Source: Eledone cirrhosa
Taxonomy: Eukaryota
Direction: 5' to 3'
DNA length: 64,000 bases
Assembly (NCBI GenBank): GCA_964016885.1
Contig: OZ024740.1
Span: 331,328,001 to 331,392,000, forward strand
Part shown: positions 5,631-51,441 of the stretch, piece by piece
How positions within the stretch are numbered: position 1 is the first letter of the stretch
Layout: every line of letters starts with the position of its first letter
Program-made: the position numbers and the translations under genes
The notes under the pieces: generated by a model
What the model was told of the DNA's origin: nothing
What the model saw: only the letters and a program-made list of their open reading frames with translations
Database searches by the model: none

Positions 5631-6735
5631 CATATATATACATAATATATATATATATATATATATATATAGTAGAGGGAGAATAATTGGAAATGAATAA
5701 ATCCACTAGTCTTTTGAAAAGTTACGTTAAATCATGATGGTTTATTTAGGTTGAATATGCAAGTTTCAAAACCTAGTGTGTTATTCTAATGGCATGATGC
5801 TCTGTCGCAGTAGGCCATGAAAATCAACGAGCATACATATTTAATTCAGAGGAATTAACCAAAGGCTTTACACCTCCGTTTCAATCATTTAGTTCAACCA
5901 CCGTTTCGATTAAAAGATATACAATTCTAATCGACTAAATTAAGTAGTCATTTAATTAATTATACCAATGATAGAAACAACTCTCCGAATCATAACAGAA
6001 AACAGAATTATTTACATGCGTCACGTGATCCAATTATGTTATTACACAAGCATGTGTTCAAGAATAGAAGAAAATCAAGAAAAGAAAAGGAAAAGGAAAA
6101 GGAAATACATTCTTGGGAAGATGTGGAGATAATGCACATAAATTTAAGCATTATAGGGGTAGTAAGTTAGGCAGTGAAAACGACTGTTATTCCGTCAAAA
6201 TGTTGCGGTGGAGGTTCTATTTCTATTTCAATTCTAAACTTCGTTCTCGTTCCAAATACACTTGTTTACATGCCACTGATAATTTATAGCATTGAGAAAT
6301 AACGGAAAAAGCTGGGTGGTTTCATTGGCGTAATACTTGTCCAAGCAATAAGCGTGGGTCCAATACCCATGTTTGCTGATACACCAAATTTGTTCAATTA
6401 TTAGACTACTATTTAGTCAAAATGTTAAGGTACTGTTTCTATTCCTATTTAAATTCTAAACTTTACAAAGAAAACTTCATAAAAATTTGCTGGCTATGAT
6501 GCAGCACGAGCAAAACCTAATACTATAGAAAACAGTATATATATATATATATATACCACTCCTCCCTCACACCCTCTCGGAACTCTTCTCCTTCCCACCA
6601 TTTTCCCCAACCCACTCTCAAGAGTGAACATAATACCTAACAACTTTCGTAACTGTACACCTTGTTGTTTACTTTTCCAATATATATATATATATATATA
6701 TTTAGTTTTTGTAATAAACAACATAAGACAATTAT

Positions 6736-6796
6736 TTCATTTACCAGGGGTTTCTTGAAGGCAGATGTTATGTCTGTCTTCAATCGTCAGAATGAA
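6736..6796 (-). ncRNA. Type I hammerhead ribozyme
   Basis: UUCAUU-CUGACGA-UUGAAG...CUUCAA-GAAA-CC ccu G-GUA^-AAUGAA; 6-bp helix I, helix II of at least 6 bp. Confidence 0.8.
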
Positions 6797-7023
6797 TAAA
6801 TAATATGGTGTTTTTATTAAATATGGATTTAAAAAAAAAATTTAGGAAATATGAAAGTGAGGCTGCAAAAACGGGCAAAAAGAAATTAGGAGAAACATTA
6901 TATAAAGAAATATCCAGAACATAAATATACACACACACAGCCTTGCGCTTATACGTAAGGTCACTTTCATATTTCCTAAATTTCTTTTCAAATCCATATT
7001 TGATAAAAATACCATGTTATTTA

Positions 7024-7084
7024 TTCATTCTGACGACTGAAGACAGACATAACATCTGCCTTCAAGAAACCACTGGTAAATGAA
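7024..7084 (+). ncRNA. Type I hammerhead ribozyme (inverted partner copy)
   Basis: TTCATT CTGACGA CTGAAG...CTTCAA GAAA CCACTG GTA AATGAA. Confidence 0.75.
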
Positions 7085-7232
7085 ATAAATATCTTATGTT
7101 TTTATTACATAACTAATAAGCTCTGTAGCCTACAGAGAGCACTCTCTTTTCCAGTACCTTTCCTACGGAAATACTTCATTTATAGATATAGATACACACA
7201 CGCACACACACATATACACACACACACATATG

Positions 7233-7418: not shown

Positions 7419-7657
7419 CCTGCTGCTTAAGAAGTATTGAAAAATGTTCAAATTTAAATTGTAGTCACCCCAAATGTGAAAAAGACGTCGTCAGTATGTA
7501 TTCCTATTTTATCGCTATTTCTCAACTTTTAATTTCTCAATTTGTAAATGACTCTCATACACATTTGCGTTGGGCGACTAAATTTCAAAAATAGATATAC
7601 CATACAAATACATATTCTACCACCAAGGGTAGACCAGACTGATATATATATATATAG

Positions 7658-7739
<82 letters not shown>

Positions 7740-7920
7740 ATAAATATATATATATATATATATTGGAATAAATGCTCTGAAATAGCGATATATATGTGAA
7801 TATAGACATAGAATATTCGAAAATATTCTGTATGTTTATAATAAACATTTTGAAGACCTAATCGCTATAGAATAGAATACGTCACGTATTACAATTAGAT
7901 TCTCGATAAAAGCAAGGGAA

Positions 7921-7963
7921 GTAATCTACGCGTTTCATTCTTGTTAGAAATCATCAGGACTAC
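7921..7963 (-). ncRNA. Type I hammerhead ribozyme, unit 1
   Basis: GUAGUC-CUGAUGA-U UUCU aaca AGAA U-GAAA-CGC-GUA^-GAUUAC; palindromic helix III ACGCGU; helix I extended by 16-bp AUUCUCGAUAAAAGCA/UGCUUUUAUCGAGAAU (7899-7987). Confidence 0.9.
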
Positions 7964-8230
7964 ATATCCAGTGCTTTTATCGAGAATGACACAGCTAGAG
8001 ACTTATAGAATACTTAGCTGTGTACAGGAACTGGTTTGAAAGAGCGGTTGCCGGTCCGGCAGAAATTAGAAATTGGAATAAATGCTCTGAAATAGCGATA
8101 TATATGTGAATATAGACATAGAATATTCGAAAATATTCTGTATGTTTATAATAAACATTTTGAAGACCTAATCGCTATAGAATAGAATACGTCACGTATT
8201 ACAATTAGATTCTCGATAAAAGCAAGGGAA

Positions 8231-8273
8231 GTAATCTACGCGTTTCATTCTTGTTAGAAATCATCAGGACTAC
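8231..8273 (-). ncRNA. Type I hammerhead ribozyme, unit 2
   Basis: Same sequence as 7921-7963, +310 bp. Confidence 0.9.
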
Positions 8274-8540
8274 ATATCCAGTGCTTTTATCGAGAATGAC
8301 ACAGCTAGAGACTTATAGAATACTTAGCTGTGTACAGGAACTGGTTTGAAAGAGCGGTTGCCGGTCCGGCAGAAATTAGAAATTGGAATAAATGCTCTGA
8401 AATAGCGATATATATGTGAATATAGACATAGAATATTCGAAAATATTCTGTATGTTTATAATAAACATTTTGAAGACCTAATCGCTATAGAATAGAATAC
8501 GTCACGTATTACAATTAGATTCTCGATAAAAGCAAGGGAA

Positions 8541-8583
8541 GTAATCTACGCGTTTCATTCTTGTTAGAAATCATCAGGACTAC
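8541..8583 (-). ncRNA. Type I hammerhead ribozyme, unit 3
   Basis: Same sequence as 7921-7963, +620 bp. Confidence 0.9.
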
Positions 8584-8850
8584 ATATCCAGTGCTTTTAT
8601 CGAGAATGACACAGCTAGAGACTTATAGAATACTTAGCTGTGTACAGGAACTGGTTTGAAAGAGCGGTTGCCGGTCCGGCAGAAATTAGAAATTGGAATA
8701 AATGCTCTGAAATAGCGATATATATGTGAATATAGACATAGAATATTCGAAAATATTCTGTATGTTTATAATAAACATTTTGAAGACCTAATCGCTATAG
8801 AATAGAATACGTCACGTATTACAATTAGATTCTCGATAAAAGCAAGGGAA

Positions 8851-8893
8851 GTAATCTACGCGTTTCATTCTTGTTAGAAATCATCAGGACTAC
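8851..8893 (-). ncRNA. Type I hammerhead ribozyme, unit 4
   Basis: Same sequence as 7921-7963, +930 bp. Confidence 0.9.
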
Positions 8894-9160
8894 ATATCCA
8901 GTGCTTTTATCGAGAATGACACAGCTAGAGACTTATAGAATACTTAGCTGTGTACAGGAACTGGTTTGAAAGAGCGGTTGCCGGTCCGGCAGAAATTAGA
9001 AATTGGAATAAATGCTCTGAAATAGCGATATATATGTGAATATAGACATAGAATATTCGAAAATATTCTGTATGTTTATAATAAACATTTTGAAGACCTA
9101 ATCGCTATAGAATAGAATACGTCACGTATTACAATTAGATTCTCGATAAAAGCAAGGGAA

Positions 9161-9203
9161 GTAATCTACGCGTTTCATTCTTGTTAGAAATCATCAGGAC
9201 TAC
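9161..9203 (-). ncRNA. Type I hammerhead ribozyme, unit 5
   Basis: Same sequence as 7921-7963, +1240 bp. Confidence 0.9.
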
Positions 9204-9470
9204 ATATCCAGTGCTTTTATCGAGAATGACACAGCTAGAGACTTATAGAATACTTAGCTGTGTACAGGAACTGGTTTGAAAGAGCGGTTGCCGGTCCGGC
9301 AGAAATTAGAAATTGGAATAAATGCTCTGAAATAGCGATATATATGTGAATATAGACATAGAATATTCGAAAATATTCTGTATGTTTATAATAAACATTT
9401 TGAAGACCTAATCGCTATAGAATAGAATACGTCACGTATTACAATTAGATTCTCGATAAAAGCAAGGGAA

Positions 9471-9513
9471 GTAATCTACGCGTTTCATTCTTGTTAGAAA
9501 TCATCAGGACTAC
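9471..9513 (-). ncRNA. Type I hammerhead ribozyme, unit 6
   Basis: Same sequence as 7921-7963, +1550 bp. Confidence 0.9.
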
Positions 9514-9637
9514 ATATCCAGTGCTTTTATCGAGAATGACACAGCTAGAGACTTATAGAATACTTAGCTGTGTACAGGAACTGGTTTGAAAGAGCGGTTG
9601 CCGGTCCGGCAGAAATTAGAAATTGGAATAAATGCTC

Positions 9638-9790
9638 TGATTTCTAACAAGAATGAAACGCGTAGATTACTTCCCTTGCTTTTATCGAGAATCTAATTGT
9701 AATACGTGACGTATTCTATTCTATAGCGATTAGGTCTTCAAAATGTTTATTATAAACATACAGAATATTTTCGAATATTCTATGTCTATA

Positions 9791-9795
<5 letters not shown>
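9638..9795 (+). repeat. Inverted partial copy of the 310-bp unit terminating the array
   Basis: TGATTTCTAACAAGAATGAAACGCGTAG...GTCTATATTCA is the reverse complement of unit positions about 7797-7953; TGA shared at the junction; runs into (TA)n. Confidence 0.9.
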
Positions 9796-9862
<67 letters not shown>

Positions 9863-12746
9863 TGTGGTCTACCCTTGCTGGTAGAATATGTATTTGTATG
9901 TCTATTTTTGTATCTACCCTGTTTATATACTATCATTAAAGGTTCTAACTTCATTGTTTCCGAAGAAGACGGTCTGATTATATATGAGGTCTGATAGTAT
10001 ACAATTATAGAATTGCTATAGATTTGACAATATATCAATATGATCACCCCTCGGAAACGATCGTAAACAAATATATGAATAGGTAAAATAACTCGATTTG
10101 TTGCTATAATTTTCATTGTTATTTTAATACCTAATATATATATAAATATATATATATATATATGTGTATGTGTGTGTATGTGTGTGTATGTGTGTGGTGT
10201 GTGTGTGTGTGCGGGCATGTGTGTGCGTGCGCGCCTGTGCGTGTGGGTGTAGCAGATTTTGTTTTATTTGTCCGAAATGAAATACGTTTTCAGTGAAATC
10301 CTTGAATGAATGATTCCGGCAATATATTTTTTGCGCGTTTTTAAGCCAGTGAATATTAAGAAATTGCGAAATCGATGACACGCGCATGTTATATAATTAT
10401 CTTTATTTTGATATAATCTTGTGATTTTTTAAAAATCAAATCACATGAATAAAGGTTTGTAACTGAGGAATATCAATACCAATAGTAATAATCAAAGAAA
10501 ATATATTACCAACGAATCTAGTGGACCAGCAAGATCTGAAGAAGTATTACTTTGATTTGCTGCAGAGTGCTGGTGGTGTTAACGTTGTTGCGTGTTTTTT
10601 CTTGATTTGATAACTCGAATGAAAGGAAAATATAAAAAAAACTACGAAGGGATATTTTCTGACATGTTATGGAGCAGGAGTAAAATGAAAGGAAACGTAA
10701 TTTTTTTGTCGAAACAAGTTTGAATATTAAATGGTGAAACGAAAAGTATTATATTTCATAGACCAAAGGGAAACTTGAGTGAAACAAAGGAATCATAAAA
10801 TATCAGGAGCCACGGGGAAATTTAGAAACTACGGAATCCAGATCGGATGGTAGTACATAAACAGAATTAAACCAAAAATGCCGTAAGGCTGATTCCATTC
10901 CAGAATGTCCAACAACAACAACCATGATATAGAACCTTTTGGCTGAAGGTTATAAATACATCCAAGAGAACAAAAACCGAACATATATTGACGAAAGACT
11001 CTTGATGTTTAAATATTATTATCAGTACAACATACGGTGAAATCCTATCAAAGATTAGACCAAAAACAAATCTGTGTACGTATAGTTTCTGTCACACTTT
11101 TCAGATTATTTCCAAGCCATAAAGTTAGATCCAATTGCAGCGTATTTAGAGAGAATGAAAGCTTCGTCGTATTTTTACGGCGCGATTAATGGTCTGAATT
11201 CAAATTTCGCCCTCATCTCTGATTTTTATCTTTTCAGGTTCGATGAAATAGACTGCCACTACAGTACTGAGATCGATATCATTCCCATTCCGCATCTCTA
11301 CAAATTGATGATCTTGTTTCTAAGATATTGTGGATAGCACAGACGTTATAATTCTGGAACACTATACAAATTAGTGCTACCTTTTTCTTAGAAAGCGTTT
11401 AATTTGCTAATATATGACCGTGATTTAAAACCTCATGGTTTTAAATAGATATCTACTCGGTCACAAATAGCAAACTCTTGTATCTAAAATTGTACATTGA
11501 TGGTTAAACTCTATGAGGAATATGCCGTGTACTTTGGCTGTAATCACATTATTTTGAACAAATATAAAATAGTTTCTACACTTGTATAAGATATTTGCTG
11601 ATAGGTGTAAAGAAGAAAGAACATATGAACTGGTAACTATCTGGAATGGTCATCCATTATATTGACAGTTCAGCTCAACTACTAATTTTAGCACCCGTGA
11701 ATCATCGTTATAGAAATTATATAAATCTTTATGACACTACAGTCAGCCGGTGTGGTATTAAATTTGCAAATTTTCATAATGAAGTCATTAAAAAATATCA
11801 ACGTATAATTATGGAAATTGCAATGTTAAAGACAACTTTAATTCCGTTAGAATATTCGAAATTGATTAATTAAAAACAAAATCAACTTATTAAAAGTAAT
11901 TAATAAAATAATTTTTAAAAAACCGTTCCTTGTATTTATTTACCTCTTTTTAGCAATTATATGAAACAATTATCAAATTATTTGCTTAATATGGTATTTT
12001 TTTGTTATTGCAGACGTGCTTATTTTACTGCCTGCAGAATGACTACGAGTAAATGAGTTACGAATAATAAAATATTTCATTCAGAATACAATTAATATTA
12101 ACAAATCGAAAATTACAAATTCAATAAGATTTCGCATTGCTTATATTTGTAATGCATTTGTCTGGAACAAGTTGCTTTAGCTATGGCTTCTTAATACCCT
12201 CATATGACAGGAGAATTTTAATGAAGCAATATATGTAGCAAGGTAGATCGAGGGTGCAGATATTCAGGAAACACTGTTTCTGCAACTCCTGGAACATGCG
12301 CTGGCGTTTATGTAACGTATCCTAGTAACATTTAGGAGTATTGTAAAACCAATTTCTCTTAAAAGACAAAGAAACTATTTTTAAATGTCATATGAATTAT
12401 CCTAATGTATGTTTTCTCCAAAATTGTTCCAACGTCTATTTTTTTTGCGCCAAATGTAGGTTTGTGTCGGCTGATTGAGATGTCACTGAAAAATAAGTCT
12501 TTCAAAACAAATATGTGTGTGTGTGTAGTAGTAGTAAAGAGGTTCGTTGTTGTGATAATGGTCAGTGGGGATGTGTGTGCGAACCGCAGCCTGTTGACAG
12601 TTCAAATGCCTATTAAGACAAGTGTGTGTGTGTGTGTAGCAGAGTAATTCGTGGTAGAGGGATGGTCAGTAGGAATGTGTCTGTAAGTGTGTGGGGGATA
12701 TTTTAACATGTTAAAGGATATTTTTCAGCTCTTGTCTTATACGGAG

Positions 12747-46837: not shown

Positions 46838-46929
46838 TATGTATATATTAATATATATATATGTATATATATATATGTATATATGGAGGAAAAATTACGA
46901 AATGGAAATGCGGGTATATAGAATTTATT

Positions 46930-47046
46930 AGGTAACAATTGTTTCTATAGTGTATGAGTTACCTATACCTCGCTATTTGAATAATACACAAATATTATCA
47001 AAAACCGAAAGTACACTGTAAGTCAACACACCATGTCATCAGACCT
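46930..47046 (-). ncRNA. Hammerhead with ~75-nt loop II in the downstream pseudo-LTR
   Basis: AGGU-CUGAUGA-C AUGGUGUG...UACACUAU A-GAAA-CAAUU-GUU^-ACCU; palindromic helix III ACAAUUGU. Confidence 0.72.
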
Positions 47047-47456
47047 TTGTATTAGAATGATATGAAAATATTTTATACACTAGATAAAAGATAAAGAAGG
47101 AGGTAGGAAGAGAAGGGGAAGAGGGAAGTGAGTAAGGTGGAGGGAGTCTTAGGGTTTAAGACTGTCAGACTAGTAGAGATTGTGAAGAGAGAATGTTTTG
47201 GCAGCAGTTAGCTTAATGAGGCGTGCTAAGGTTGGCTGGGAAGTAGATACTTCTAGTGGTGTTGTTCGGACAAAATTTAGTTAGAGGGGTCAAAGTGGTA
47301 CAATGTCACAGACAAGTTATTAGGGCTATTATAGTAGCAGGTTATTTCTAAAGGGGTCCAGAAAAACAGTGTTTAGTACTATTATTATAGAAAGCCATAT
47401 TTAGTGTATAAACATATAAGACAGAAATTTGCAAACGTTGGTGTAAAAAGGTAACA

Positions 47457-49739
47457 TTATATGCATTTAAAAAAAGAAAAAGTCGTTTTCAAACGATGGT
47501 TACAGTATAGAGAACGTTCAATTTTGCTGTTCAAAAGTTTGTTTACCGACGTTAAAATGCAGTATATCTCTAAATTGCATAACTTGCAGAATCGATGATT
47601 TTGCTGATATGCAGGCGCAGCTGCAATAATTTGCCAATCAAGGGAGAACGCTTGATTGTTCTTCCGAAGCTGCCAGGCTTTATCGGCGAGGGTTGTTACG
47701 GAGCGCATTTTCTCGTGCCTGATCGAAGATCGATGTTGGTATAGGCGAGCCTTGAAAGAAGTTGCGGTACATCCGACGTAATACCATTTGTTGGTCCCGG
47801 AATTAATTGTACACCGGTAGACAATATTGCGTGCTAGGCACTGGTTATTCAGTGGGCACGTACCTGGTTTGGTGCAGTTACAACTATTTTTATGTTTTGC
47901 AGTAGAATCCTGGATAGTTTGGTGGGGTTGTGGTTGCGTGTTAGTGCGTTGCATGTTGCTATGCTGGTGCGCTGAGTCATTAGGGATGTACTTATTCAGT
48001 ATTGCTGAGTTGAGTTTTCTAATTAGTTGTTCTATGTTAGGTGCAGTGGAGTATGAGAGTCTAATGGTGCGCGAGTTAAAGATTTTATAGTATTTATGTG
48101 AAGTTGTAAAGTGTTTATTGATTAGTGTATAGAATTGTGAGATAATCTTAGTGCTAATAGAAGAGTTGTACACGGGGTTATACCATATGTACTCTCTACG
48201 TCTGACTCTATTTGCTGGTTTGCACCTGTTAGTATGCCTATTGATGTGTGTGTGTGGTGCAATACTAGTTCGACTTAGATGTGTTTTATTCCTAGTACTT
48301 ATGTGGTTATCGTCTAGATATTCAATTTTCTCGCAGTAACCAGCTTTTCTAAGTGCGTCATTATAATATTCAGCATGCTCGTTGAAGGTCTGCAAATTAG
48401 ACGCCAGTCGGGAGATCCTTATGGATATATTTTTAGGGATAGATTTAATAATGGAATGAGGATGGTTCGATTTTACATTAACGTACTTAAGATTTTCATT
48501 AAGTTTGTGAAATGGCTCTATATTACCGTTATTAAGGTTGAAGGTAACATCCAAGAAGTTGACCACCTTAAGATTGTGTTCAAAGGTAATATTAAGCCCT
48601 AGTTCTAAGAAAAGTTTCCTAATGTTTTTACGTCGCCTTTCTAGGTTTTGTTTGTTCATATTCTTGACTAATAGAAGTGTATCGTCGCGGTATATTCCGC
48701 CGTGGAGGTCCGTAAATTCGCTCTGGAGTCTATGGGCTATATAGATCCCAACCAAATCCGTGACCTCCGCCGAATCATTAGAACCCATCGTAATGTCGAA
48801 TTCCGAGGGTCTATCCCTGCGGACCCAATAACTATTTTCAAAGTGCACTACTGTGCGTCTAGCTTCAAGTATAATATTAATTTCCACGTTTGTGAGGTCC
48901 GAGTTAGTCTTAGCAAAAGAGAGGGCCTTATGCAGGGTTTCGGGTGAAATAGAGGAATAGTATTCATCTATATCGAATTGAATAAAAGAAGATTTGTTTT
49001 TGTCCCTAATGTTATTGAACCATCTTATTGCCTGATGAGTATTACCCCATAATTTAATATCTACCTTAGCCTTAACTTGGGGGATAATACGATCTAATAT
49101 GTACTTACTAATCTTACCTATATCGGACTTTGAAGGACATATTAATCTAATTTTAGGGTTAGTATCGAAGTTATCCTTATGGTCCTTCAGATTAAAAGTC
49201 GGTGTAGCTGGGGATAGGGGTACCGTTCTGTCGTCAATTTTCAGTTTCCTAACAATATCACATGCTGCGTTATTAATGTTGGTTAGTGTAGTTGCGTTTG
49301 TTTTTTTGTATTTCCTATGTAATTCCTTACGTATAAAATTGTTATATGTTTCTACATCCAGGGTGTATAGATTCGAAGTTTTGTCTGCCTTTATGATAAT
49401 TCCTTTGGTATTCCTTAGGCTGTTGAGTAGAGTTTTAATATCTCGTTGCAGTTCGTTTTTCCTTCCGTTTGTAAATTTGATTCCGGTTATCATTTTCATT
49501 AAGTCCTGTTCGAAAGAATCCAAAAGAGGGTTAGAGGGTGGGTTTTTGTAGGATTTGAAACCAAACTTCTCGTTGTTGGTGTCCGAAGTTTGTGTAATCC
49601 TTTTCCGATCGAAGTGGAAGGCCTTCCATCTAATCCGCCGAATAAATTCGTTGGTCCTTTGTATCATACCAAGAATGTAATCCTTTTTACCCTGAATGGG
49701 TATGTTTTTTAAGGACATACCACAATGATGTTTTTCCAT
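47457..49739 (-). CDS. Penelope-like reverse transcriptase + C-terminal GIY-YIG endonuclease (760 aa)
   Basis: KADKT, KDHK..PKIRLI, FDIDEYYSSI, ITMGSNDSAEV.DLVG, GIYRDD, VNFLDVT, WYNP, CNC..CPL..CL, IVYRC..YVGCTATSFKARLYQH, CKLC.LE, LN..E..CNH. Confidence 0.95.
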   Translation of the reverse strand: MEKHHCGMSLKNIPIQGKKDYILGMIQRTNEFIRRIRWKAFHFDRKRITQTSDTNNEKFGFKSYKNPPSNPLLDSFEQDLMKMITGIKFTNGRKNELQRDIKTLLNSLRNTKGIIIKADKTSNLYTLDVETYNNFIRKELHRKYKKTNATTLTNINNAACDIVRKLKIDDRTVPLSPATPTFNLKDHKDNFDTNPKIRLICPSKSDIGKISKYILDRIIPQVKAKVDIKLWGNTHQAIRWFNNIRDKNKSSFIQFDIDEYYSSISPETLHKALSFAKTNSDLTNVEINIILEARRTVVHFENSYWVRRDRPSEFDITMGSNDSAEVTDLVGIYIAHRLQSEFTDLHGGIYRDDTLLLVKNMNKQNLERRRKNIRKLFLELGLNITFEHNLKVVNFLDVTFNLNNGNIEPFHKLNENLKYVNVKSNHPHSIIKSIPKNISIRISRLASNLQTFNEHAEYYNDALRKAGYCEKIEYLDDNHISTRNKTHLSRTSIAPHTHINRHTNRCKPANRVRRREYIWYNPVYNSSISTKIISQFYTLINKHFTTSHKYYKIFNSRTIRLSYSTAPNIEQLIRKLNSAILNKYIPNDSAHQHSNMQRTNTQPQPHQTIQDSTAKHKNSCNCTKPGTCPLNNQCLARNIVYRCTINSGTNKWYYVGCTATSFKARLYQHRSSIRHEKMRSVTTLADKAWQLRKNNQAFSLDWQIIAAAPAYQQNHRFCKLCNLEIYCILTSVNKLLNSKIERSLYCNHRLKTTFSFFKCI

Positions 49740-49946
49740 TTCAAAGACGCAGGTTGATAGGTTGCTCGACTGTAAAGGAGTGTGAAGAATTAGATAATTT
49801 GTATTCCAATGTTACTAAGTAGTTGCATTGGATGGAGTCAACTGACGTCAGAGATTGCTCAACGTATAATAAAGTGTGTTTTAAAATCCGGAGAAAATAT
49901 GGAGGAAAAATTTACGAAATGGAAATGCGGGTATATAGAATTTATT

Positions 49947-50063
49947 AGGTAACAATTGTTTCTATAGTGTATGAGTTACCTATACCTCGCTATTTGAATA
50001 ATACACAAATATTATCAAAAACCGAAAGTACACTGTAAGTCAACACACCATGTCATCAGACCT
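49947..50063 (-). ncRNA. Same hammerhead in the upstream pseudo-LTR
   Basis: Same sequence as 46930-47046, 3017 bp away. Confidence 0.72.
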
Positions 50064-50522
50064 TTGTATTAGAATGATATGAAAATATTTTATACACTAG
50101 ATAAAAGATAAAGAAGGAGGTAGGAAGAGAAGGGGAAGAGGGAAGTGAGTAAGGTGGAGGGAGTCTTAGGGTTTAAGACTGTCAGACTAGTAGAGATTGT
50201 GAAGAGAGAATGTTTTGGCAGCAGTTAGCTTAATGAGGCGTGCTAAGGTTGGCTGGGAAGTAGATACTTCTAGTGGTGTTGTTCGGACAAAATTTAGTTA
50301 GAGGGGTCAAAGTGGTACAATGTCACAGACAAGTTATTAGGGCTATTATAGTAGCAGGTTATTTCTAAAGGGGTCCAGAAAAACAGTGTTTAGTACTATT
50401 ATTATAGAAAGCCATATTTAGTGTATAAACATATAAGACAGAAATTTGCAAACGTTGGTGTAAAAAGGTAACATTATATGCATTTAAAAAAAGAAAAAGT
50501 CGTTTTCAAACGATGGTTACAG

Positions 50523-50615: not shown

Positions 50616-51420
50616 GAAACAAAATGAAAACGAAATTTCATTTCTCACTCTTAGTATGGCACTTACTTAAATGTAAGTATGCATGTATACGTACATACAT
50701 ATATGTATACAGACGTACAGTAGCATGCACATATATATATATATATATACATATATACATACATATGCATACAGGTACACATACATATATGCACGTATCA
50801 GTTTAGCGGCGCTTATTATAACGTCGCTTTGTTCGTTTGTAAACAAACTGAACAGCCTGAATTTATGCCATACGGTGTTAAGGCAACCACGTTACCTTTT
50901 TGTTCAACACTGACACAGGAACGATGTACTAGTTTCAAGCTTGTTAGCTATCATCAGCACCGTTTACCCATCTGCCAGATAGTTGAACGTTCGAAAGTAT
51001 ATACTTTCCTTATGAAAATTAACGGCTGAGCAGCCTAATTTGCATATTGAGTGAGTTAAATCGGTCAGGCATACCGAAAACGATAAATTGAAACAAAATG
51101 AAAACGAAATTTCATTTCTCACTCTTAGTATGGCACTTACTTAAATGTAAGTATGTATGTATACGTACATACATATATGTATACAGACGTACAGTAGCAT
51201 GCATATATATATATATATATACATATATACATATATACATACATATGCATACAGGTACACATACATATATGCACGTATCAGTTTAGCGGCGCTTATTATA
51301 ACGTCGCTTTTTCGTTTGTAAACAAACTGAACAGCCTGAATTTATGCCATACGGTGTTAAGGCTGTTCAGTTTATGCCATACGGTGTTAAGGCATAAACT
51401 GAACAGCTTTAACCCATTCG
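50616..51420 (-). mobile_element. ~1.6 tandem copies of a 474-bp hammerhead-containing unit with rearranged/inverted end (putative retrozyme)
   Basis: GAAACAAAATGAAAACG at 50616 and 51090; short inversions at about 51360-51410; (TA)n flanks. Confidence 0.8.
50920..50964 (-). ncRNA. Type I hammerhead ribozyme
   Basis: AACGGUG-CUGAUGA-U AGCU aaca AGCU U-GAAA-CUA-GUA^-CAUCGUU; palindromic helix III ACUAGU. Confidence 0.85.
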
Positions 51421-51441
51421 CTGTTTCGAAAATATTCTTCC

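What the first reader, a model, noticed from the sequence alone, without database searches (positions are those of the whole stretch)
7763..9795. Six identical 310-bp hammerhead units plus a fold-back tail: candidate footprint of reverse transcription around a circular RNA (retrozyme)
Seen: six head-to-tail copies with no visible differences. Each has a complete type I HHR on the minus strand, with a 16-bp helix I extension and several other hairpins (AGAATATT..AATATTCT, AATACGT.ACGTATT, ACACAGCTA..TAGCTGTGT, GCCGG.CCGGC). The array starts from (TA)n, about 165 nt away from the cleavage site (7926/7927). It ends by switching strand at a TGA microhomology inside the HHR core. Established: metazoan non-LTR retrozymes are tandem HHR repeats of a few hundred nt that yield circular RNAs and are thought to be mobilised by PLEs. 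Inference: one recent insertion in which an RT went round a 310-nt circle or multimer six times and then jumped onto its own cDNA. I do not recognise this family.
Basis: partly seen in the sequence, partly recalled or inferred. Interest (0 to 1): 0.92.

Follow-up and report, generated by a model that had tools for sequence, protein, structure and literature searches.

The report
Double-primed retrozyme insertions in TA repeats
This is one of over a thousand young copies of a small self-cutting RNA parasite, and the way its copies end suggests that a Penelope-type reverse transcriptase pasted each one in by starting from both broken DNA ends at two different fixed sites and running repeatedly round a circular RNA.

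Summary
In detail: 6.06 identical 310-bp units, each with a type I hammerhead motif on the minus strand, plus an inverted arm joined at TGA. The locus is not a one-off. The family has at least 1,250 dispersed insertions in (TA)n. Outer ends sit at only two sites (unit nt 125-139 'A', 165-170 'B'), and 76 of 76 complete two-armed copies carry one of each, head-to-head. This is the 'tail plus inverted copy' signature of Penelope-like elements (PLEs); an autonomous PLE in the window shows it too. Fold-back onto the RT's own cDNA is not supported: either arm can be the longer (33 v 43) and junctions are not palindromic. Both arms share a haplotype in 57 of 59 loci, junctions are not inherited, and none of 162 inner ends lies at the ribozyme cut. 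That favours a circular monomer as template (about 65%). A 64%-identical sister family keeps the helices by compensatory change and uses the same two ends. Not shown: cleavage, any RNA, the partner PLE. Verdict: an animal non-LTR retrozyme whose insertion anatomy gives genomic evidence for a mobilisation step that the papers I read only propose.

The parts
7642..7763 (.). Left target microsatellite, (AT)n with a (GT)n insert
7762..9640 (-). B arm: 1,879 nt, 6.06 identical units; outer end at unit nt 165 (site B), inner end at nt 147. Unit numbering starts at the base after the predicted cut.
7762..7787 (-). PLE-type 'tail' (unit nt 140-165), present at this end and absent from the other
   Evidence: compare PMC11167929, PMC8557442
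7899..7987 (-). Hammerhead 1 with 16-bp helix I extension; predicted cut 7927/7926
   Evidence: extension keeps 16 of 16 pairs, 8 with both sides changed, in the sister family
8209..8297 (-). Hammerhead 2 (cut 8237/8236)
8519..8607 (-). Hammerhead 3
8829..8917 (-). Hammerhead 4
9139..9227 (-). Hammerhead 5
9449..9537 (-). Hammerhead 6
8037..8116 (-). Conserved domain (unit nt 121-200, one copy shown) holding site A (8098-8107), site B (8067-8072) and the helix that closes the B loop; candidate RT-loading element
   Evidence: 15-17 of 20 identical per 20-nt bin to the sister family against 64% overall
9638..9640 (.). Head-to-head junction, 3-nt microhomology (unit nt 147 against nt 284)
9638..9803 (+). 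A arm: unit nt 284-310 then 1-139; crosses one predicted cut (9664/9665), partial hammerhead; outer end in the AU run (site A)
9794..9859 (.). Right target microsatellite (AT)n

Best explanation
A non-autonomous, hammerhead-bearing retroelement (animal non-LTR retrozyme) inserted by the RT and GIY-YIG nuclease of a Penelope-like element. (1, inferred) Read-through transcripts of tandem arrays are cut by the hammerheads into 310-nt monomers and ligated into circles. (2, inferred from conservation) A PLE protein binds the conserved nt 121-200 domain. (3, pattern shown, cause inferred) Both strands of a (TA)n target are cut and both 3' ends prime cDNA synthesis, one at site A, where the primer can pair with an 8-9 nt AU run, and one at site B, 26-35 nt downstream, with only 2-3 nt of pairing; each insertion uses each site once. 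(4, inferred) Each cDNA runs through the ligated ribozyme site for a variable number of rounds (median 3.3 units). (5, pattern shown) The two cDNA ends are joined head-to-head by microhomology or short templated insertions. Each new array can be a new source. Some long arrays were extended later by local duplication. Step odds: retroposition by PLE machinery 0.9; two independent primings 0.85; covalently closed monomer as the usual template 0.65-0.7.
For: Dispersed family: 4,177 exact 43-nt core matches, 0 for the reversed control; 1,252 A ends and 1,339 B ends joined to (TA)n. One-of-each rule: 63 of 63 outward-facing pairs among the first 100 A and 95 B hits on C1 (29 AB, 34 BA, 0 AA, 0 BB); 76 of 76 complete two-armed elements, including 9 of 9 found by the ribozyme core alone and 12 of 12 found by one end only; 20 of 20 outer ends in view in core-ascertained loci lie at A or B next to TA-type repeats. 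The same rule holds in the autonomous PLE family of the window (5 of 5 two-armed copies with both ends visible) and in the sister family (6 of 6 where both ends were detected). Junction microhomology of 2 nt or more in 33 of 54 junctions without inserted bases, 18% expected (p = 4e-12). For a monomer circle: arms share the majority haplotype in 54 of 59 loci (57 of 59 when variants seen once in a locus are ignored; two random loci share with p = 0.10); 34 majority haplotypes in 83 loci; 10 of 67 loci with 3 or more units carry a private variant in most or all units; 147 of 152 arms cross a cut site; 0 of 162 inner ends at nt 1-11 (5.7 expected); no excess of errors within 5 nt of the cut (3 against 3.8); 81 distinct junctions among 83, the one shared between loci being the 16-bp helix on different haplotypes. 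For a functional RNA: variants fixed in arrays keep pairing 9:5, minor variants 8:35 (p = 0.002); none of 24 fixed variants lies in the ribozyme core. In vitro precedent for two adjacent internal starts and extension of both strands: PMC11167929.
Against: Cleavage and circularisation were not tested; the 10.1-11.1 pair is U.U, helix III is 2 bp, and PMC-listed precedents are mixed (1 of 9 Xenopus dimers cleaved in 10.64898/2026.07.22.740005; cleavage was not needed for insertion in vitro in PMC11167929). Inner ends are over-represented at nt 12-23 (17 of 162, about 6 expected; overall uniformity p = 0.03), which could be run-off at the cut followed by trimming. A sister-family locus (L191) is a ribozyme-less 163-bp tandem with the same B end, so tandem structure alone does not need a hammerhead. 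L071 and L112 mix two haplotypes, so one template molecule is not the whole story. Arm lengths are uncorrelated (rho 0.13, p = 0.25). Shared haplotype could mean one dominant source locus per cell, not one molecule. No autonomous PLE sharing sequence with the unit was found. Most loci were taken from contig C1 and most were found through (TA)-joined end patterns.
Confidence: 0.65

Rival explanations
1. Same PLE double priming, but the template is a linear, uncut multimeric transcript of a long homogeneous source array; the hammerhead is slow or acts at another stage.
For: PLEs normally copy tandem transcripts and uncleaved RNA was the dominant substrate in vitro (PMC11167929). Arrays of up to 45 units exist. 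A ribozyme-less tandem exists (L191).
Against: It needs many long homogeneous sources (34 haplotypes in 83 loci). With a median arm of 3.3 units, copies should often run into the source's junction or flank; none was inherited, and the one long foreign insert (L036) comes from an unrelated repeat cluster with no unit beside it in 9 of 9 donor loci checked. It gives no route for private variants to fill every unit of both arms.
Confidence: 0.15
2. The template is a cut monomer held closed by the long helix I (a nicked circle), and the RT jumps precisely from its 5' to its 3' end each round, as bacterial DRT2 RTs do on their RNA.
For: Explains the monomer bottleneck equally well; the 16-bp extension holds the two ends together; the excess of inner ends at nt 12-23 may be trimmed run-off; template switching is evident (L071, L036).
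Against: No inner end at nt 1-11 and no scar at the cut in 637 units. Circles dominate in the animal retrozymes examined in PMC7229834.
Confidence: 0.12
3. One reading: one priming, several rounds, then a jump onto the RT's own cDNA; the second end is joined to (TA)n by microhomology. Related to the self-priming idea for head-to-head PLE copies in PMC3846280.
For: Explains why both arms share a haplotype; site A has 8-9 nt of homology to (TA)n; single-armed copies exist.
Against: No arm type is consistently longer (33 v 43); site B is a fixed end with only 2-3 nt homology; junction offsets are uniform; 0 of 21 minor variants within mirror reach appear in the other arm (weak, since they may postdate insertion); L071 and L112 contradict mirror copying.
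Confidence: 0.04
4. A satellite spread at DNA level, or an assembly or amplification artefact that creates fold-backs.
For: Higher-order blocks in long arrays (7-unit in L034/35, others in L097/98 and L036) show DNA-level expansion. The copy number at this locus is not confirmed by long reads.
Against: Two fixed RNA-sense 3' ends, non-mirrored flanks, unique junctions, locus-specific haplotypes and selection on pairing; short-read contigs of run X2 hold the unit at very high depth with joints between the arms and TA loose ends (X2 may be the assembly's own source, so it is not independent).
Confidence: 0.03

Closest known systems
Animal non-LTR retrozymes (Cervera and de la Pena 2020, PMC7229834; Li et al. 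2026, 10.64898/2026.07.22.740005)
   Same: Non-coding 310-bp tandem unit, 34% GC, one type I hammerhead motif per unit with a weak palindromic helix III, dispersed dimers to multimers, PLEs abundant in the same genome.
   Different: Insertions are mostly two arrays head-to-head with fixed, non-equivalent ends in (TA)n. 'Inverted' does not occur in the main text of PMC7229834 and only in a reference title in Li et al., with 'tail' and 'initiation' absent. PMC7761336 says these repeats show no conserved motif pointing to the mobilising element; here one is visible. No homologous pLTR was found, unlike 24 of 57 Xenopus families.
EN+ Penelope-like element insertions: inverted 5'-truncated copy and one-sided 30-40 bp tail (PMC3846280, PMC8557442); two internal RT start sites of Poseidon PAc (PMC11167929)
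   Same: Two adjacent fixed ends, head-to-head arms, variable inner truncation, AT-rich target, hammerhead upstream of the start sites.
   Different: No ORF; many-unit arms; the tail is 26-35 nt; site A is homologous to the target, whereas PAc starts were reported as non-homologous; the strict one-of-each pairing is quantified here, while the papers say the tail is 'often' or 'optionally' at one end.
L1 twin priming (recalled, no call)
   Same: Both target ends prime on the RNA and the two cDNAs join by microhomology, giving an inversion.
   Different: In L1 the second priming site is variable and the arms do not overlap in sequence; here it is fixed and both arms are concatemers of the same unit.
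Non-autonomous Chlamys elements such as MRC1 (PMC8557442)
   Same: PLE parasites with multicopy head-to-tail insertions.
   Different: They resemble their autonomous partner at the 3' end and that clade lacks canonical hammerheads.

Membership tests
Animal non-LTR retrozyme | Tandem non-coding unit of 150-450 bp, GC below 50% | tested here: met
   310 bp, 34% GC, no ORF of 150 aa or more over the array
Animal non-LTR retrozyme | Type I hammerhead motif in every unit | tested here: met
   Core, three helices and GUA site by inspection and folding; compensatory changes in the sister family. Below Rfam gathering score.
Animal non-LTR retrozyme | Self-cleavage of the RNA | not testable with these tools
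   Indirect only: no fixed variant in the core, pairing kept
Animal non-LTR retrozyme | Accumulates as circular RNA | tested here: inconclusive
   No RNA holder listed; genomic footprint favours a circle
Animal non-LTR retrozyme | Dispersed copies, mobile | tested here: met
   At least 1,252 A ends and 1,339 B ends
Animal non-LTR retrozyme | No LTR, PBS or PPT | not tested
   No LTR-like layout seen in 80 loci; PBS and PPT were not searched for
Animal non-LTR retrozyme | Sequence homology to a PLE pLTR (seen in 24 of 57 Xenopus families, so not required) | tested here: inconclusive
   None in the window, in 30 loci of the window's PLE or 30 GIY-YIG loci; the one hit was an adjacent sister-family insertion. 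Only a small part of the genome's PLEs was sampled.
PLE-type insertion (works like) | One-sided tail between two fixed RT start sites | tested here: met
   76 of 76; tail 26-35 nt
PLE-type insertion (works like) | Inverted, 5'-truncated copy joined head-to-head | tested here: met
PLE-type insertion (works like) | AT-rich or microsatellite target | tested here: met
   20 of 20 ends in core-ascertained loci
PLE-type insertion (works like) | Target-site duplication | not testable with these tools
   Hidden inside (TA)n
Autonomous PLE (membership) | Encodes RT and GIY-YIG nuclease | tested here: not met
   No ORF in the unit; it is not itself a PLE

The most novel reading that the evidence does not exclude
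Each insertion is the record of one ribozyme-generated RNA circle being copied twice by rolling-circle reverse transcription: a dimeric PLE enzyme delivers the two cut DNA ends to two different sites of one RNA, which is why every two-armed copy has one A and one B end and one haplotype. The conserved nt 121-200 domain is the PLE-loading signal, and the family evolves as viroid-like RNA circles under selection for structure, with the genome as their store.
Probability: 0.4. Interest if true: 0.85.

Novelty: new variant of a known kind. Interest (0 to 1): 0.68.

Why it matters
How animal retrozymes get back into the genome is open: circles have been shown in vivo, but the enzyme and the template are only proposed (PMC7229834, PMC7761336), and the 2026 preprint links them to PLEs by co-occurrence and pLTR homology, not by insertion anatomy. 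Here more than a thousand near-identical insertions carry the PLE tail and inversion, name two exact start sites, and fit a circular template better than a linear one. The strict one-of-each rule also constrains the unsolved second-end step of PLE transposition. A 310-nt RNA with two predicted start sites is a small, direct substrate for the existing in vitro PLE assay.

Tried and rejected
DNA search of the genome with the whole unit returned nothing, even at the window's own place, because common words are skipped; patterns were used instead. Rfam at gathering threshold: no hit. No RNA holder listed; this says nothing on expression. Runs X1, X3 and X6, of unknown kind, each hold one 340-nt contig (310 + 30, as a closed cycle would give) at depth 10-15 with no differences; a tandem array, a circle or trace carry-over would all give this, so it is not used. 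Search for the partner PLE failed: no similarity to the window's PLEs, to 30 loci of the 760-aa family or to 30 GIY-YIG loci, and two motif patterns returned only sister or own-family copies. My guess that the window's PLE has a second end about 30 nt upstream was wrong; its second end is about 110 nt downstream. The idea that arms end by run-off at the cut was tested and not seen. The 272-nt insert in L036 was tested as a 5' transduction of a source flank and rejected. Alignment A1 was out of register and discarded. No PDB relative of the PLE protein. Rows left out: L110 (duplicate of L057), L043 (double junction) from junction statistics, L034/35 from haplotype statistics, units overlapping junctions from then on, and five elements with one end out of view. 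Of 69 end hits without a partner, 26 were examined.

Full report
Observation. A perfect 310-bp period runs from 7762 to 9640. An inverted arm follows at 9638-9803, overlapping by TGA, and (TA)n lies on both sides. The minus strand of each unit has a type I hammerhead motif: CUGAUGA, short helix II, GAAA, a 2-bp palindromic helix III, GUA, a 6-bp helix I and a 16-bp extension. Rfam scores it only weakly (HH9, 19.2 bits against 52). I number the unit from the base after the predicted cut.

The family. An exact 43-nt core occurs 4,177 times in the genome, the reversed control never. In the first twelve regions fetched, nearly every element was a minus-strand array followed by a plus-strand array, so the RNA 3' ends point outwards. 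The outer ends lay at nt ~130-139 (A) or 165-170 (B). End patterns joined to (TA)n gave 1,252 A and 1,339 B hits, a lower bound of about 1,300 insertions. Among the first 100 A and 95 B hits on C1, 63 outward-facing pairs lay within 20 kb; all 63 were one A and one B. Of the fetched elements, 76 were two-armed with both ends in view, and all were A+B. This includes 9 found by the core alone and 12 found by one end only. Nine were single-armed or cut by a gap, five had one end out of view, and one had a double junction.

What this pattern is. PLE insertions often carry an inverted 5'-truncated copy and a 30-40 bp tail at one end (passages of PMC3846280 and PMC8557442). Frangieh et al. showed in vitro that a PLE protein cuts and extends both strands of AT-rich DNA and starts at two adjacent internal sites, the tail being the stretch between them (PMC11167929, main text). 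The window's own autonomous PLE shows the same layout, with ends about 110 nt apart and one of each in 5 of 5 two-armed copies. So the retrozyme carries a PLE integration footprint. The partner itself was not found.

Two primings, not fold-back. The A arm is longer in 33 elements and the B arm in 43, and lengths are uncorrelated. The offset between inner ends is uniform. In L071 the short arm has the haplotype of the long arm's outer units, not its inner ones. Junctions without inserted bases show 2 nt or more of microhomology in 33 of 54 cases (18% expected), and 27 of 81 have inserted bases, often copied from nearby. This looks like end joining of two cDNA 3' ends; the likeness to polymerase-theta joining and to L1 twin priming is from recall.

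The template. Among 692 full units there are 118 haplotypes. Arrays are nearly homogeneous (3.5e-4 minor substitutions per bp), yet 83 loci hold 34 majority haplotypes, and both arms agree in 54 of 59 loci, or 57 of 59 after ignoring variants seen once. Each insertion therefore seems to pass through one unit. A cut linear template should give run-off at nt 1; none of 162 inner ends lies at nt 1-11, and the cut site carries no excess of errors. An uncut read-through template should carry the source's junction or flank into daughters; 81 of 83 junctions are distinct and the one shared between loci sits on different haplotypes at the strongest internal inverted repeat. A closed monomer fits all three results. 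Against it: 17 inner ends cluster at nt 12-23, which trimmed run-off could explain as well as the helix there; two loci mix haplotypes; a ribozyme-less tandem exists (L191); an earlier, unchecked note from this scan (e1-7881736) describes a ribozyme-free tandem family with PLE-type ends in another genome; and there are no RNA data.

The RNA is under selection. Variants fixed in arrays cluster at the variable core position N7, loop II and the 10.1-11.1 pair, and none of 24 hits a conserved core base. In helices they keep pairing 9:5, against 8:35 for minor variants (p = 0.002). A colinear sister family, 64% identical, keeps all 16 pairs of the helix I extension, 8 with both sides changed; over the whole predicted fold 25 of 89 pairs appear broken, some through alignment shifts. 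It uses the same two ends in 6 of 6 copies where both were detected among 30 loci. The best conserved part is nt 121-200, around the two start sites.

Comparison with print. The unit meets the tested features of animal non-LTR retrozymes (PMC7229834, parts 2 and 4 of 6 and passages; PMC7761336, passages). Those papers propose PLEs as the mobiliser and circles as templates. Li et al. 2026 (parts 1-3 of 5, through the discussion; supplements closed) add co-occurrence and pLTR homology. My searches and term counts found no description of head-to-head retrozyme arrays, fixed start sites or the one-of-each rule; most subscription journals are not covered. DRT2 (PMC12039810) was seen only as a search listing.

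Verdict. A real, young and abundant retrozyme family, so not a new class of element. Its insertion anatomy is not described in what I could read, it ties retrozymes to PLE machinery by mechanism, and it makes the circular-template model directly testable. Interest 0.68.

Noticed in passing
window 47457-49739 (-), direct repeats about 46880-47520 and 49900-50520: Open 760-aa PLE ORF (DKT, YRDD, a cysteine-rich linker, GIY-YIG-like end) with pLTRs, in (TA)n. 357 matches of a pLTR motif; two fixed ends about 110 nt apart, a much longer tail than the 30-40 nt in print; one of each in two-armed copies.
   Followed up: partly
window 50620-51440 (-): A second hammerhead-bearing repeat (unit about 480 bp, loop II like this family's, palindromic helix III, U.U at 10.1-11.1) with an inverted piece; also seen in L125 and L177.
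   Followed up: no
L185-L214, L064:3132-3441: Older sister family, about 320 nt, 64% identical and colinear, about 6% from its own consensus, with U and A in place of the C3-G8 core pair and covarying helix II; same A and B ends. A third subfamily with a canonical core is in L154, L190, L195.
   Followed up: partly
L191:1330-2040: Four-copy 163-bp tandem of the sister family with the whole ribozyme deleted, ending at site B in (TA)n.
   Followed up: partly
L036:2599-2870: 272 nt captured at the junction of the two arms, 96-98% identical to a repeat clustered on contig C25; suggests a template switch to another RNA or DNA.
   Followed up: partly
window 7586-7641 and 9859-9910: The flanks are 88% inverted copies of each other, probably ends of two older insertions pointing into the same (TA)n; a similar arrangement flanks L031.
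   Followed up: no
window 6702-7116: Another head-to-head element with a hammerhead-like core start in each arm.
   Followed up: no
L037, L100, L105, L111, L115, L120, L113: Single-armed copies are mostly A type (6 of 11 unpaired A hits against 1 of 14 unpaired B hits, p = 0.02, tallied by hand), hinting that A is the more robust or first priming.
   Followed up: partly
L034/35, L097/98, L036: Higher-order blocks (7 units, 4 units, longer) show later local duplication; one arm reaches 45 units.
   Followed up: partly
runs X1-X6: The unit is held at 97-100% of words by runs labelled as four different organisms; close kin, carry-over or transfer cannot be told apart here.
   Followed up: no
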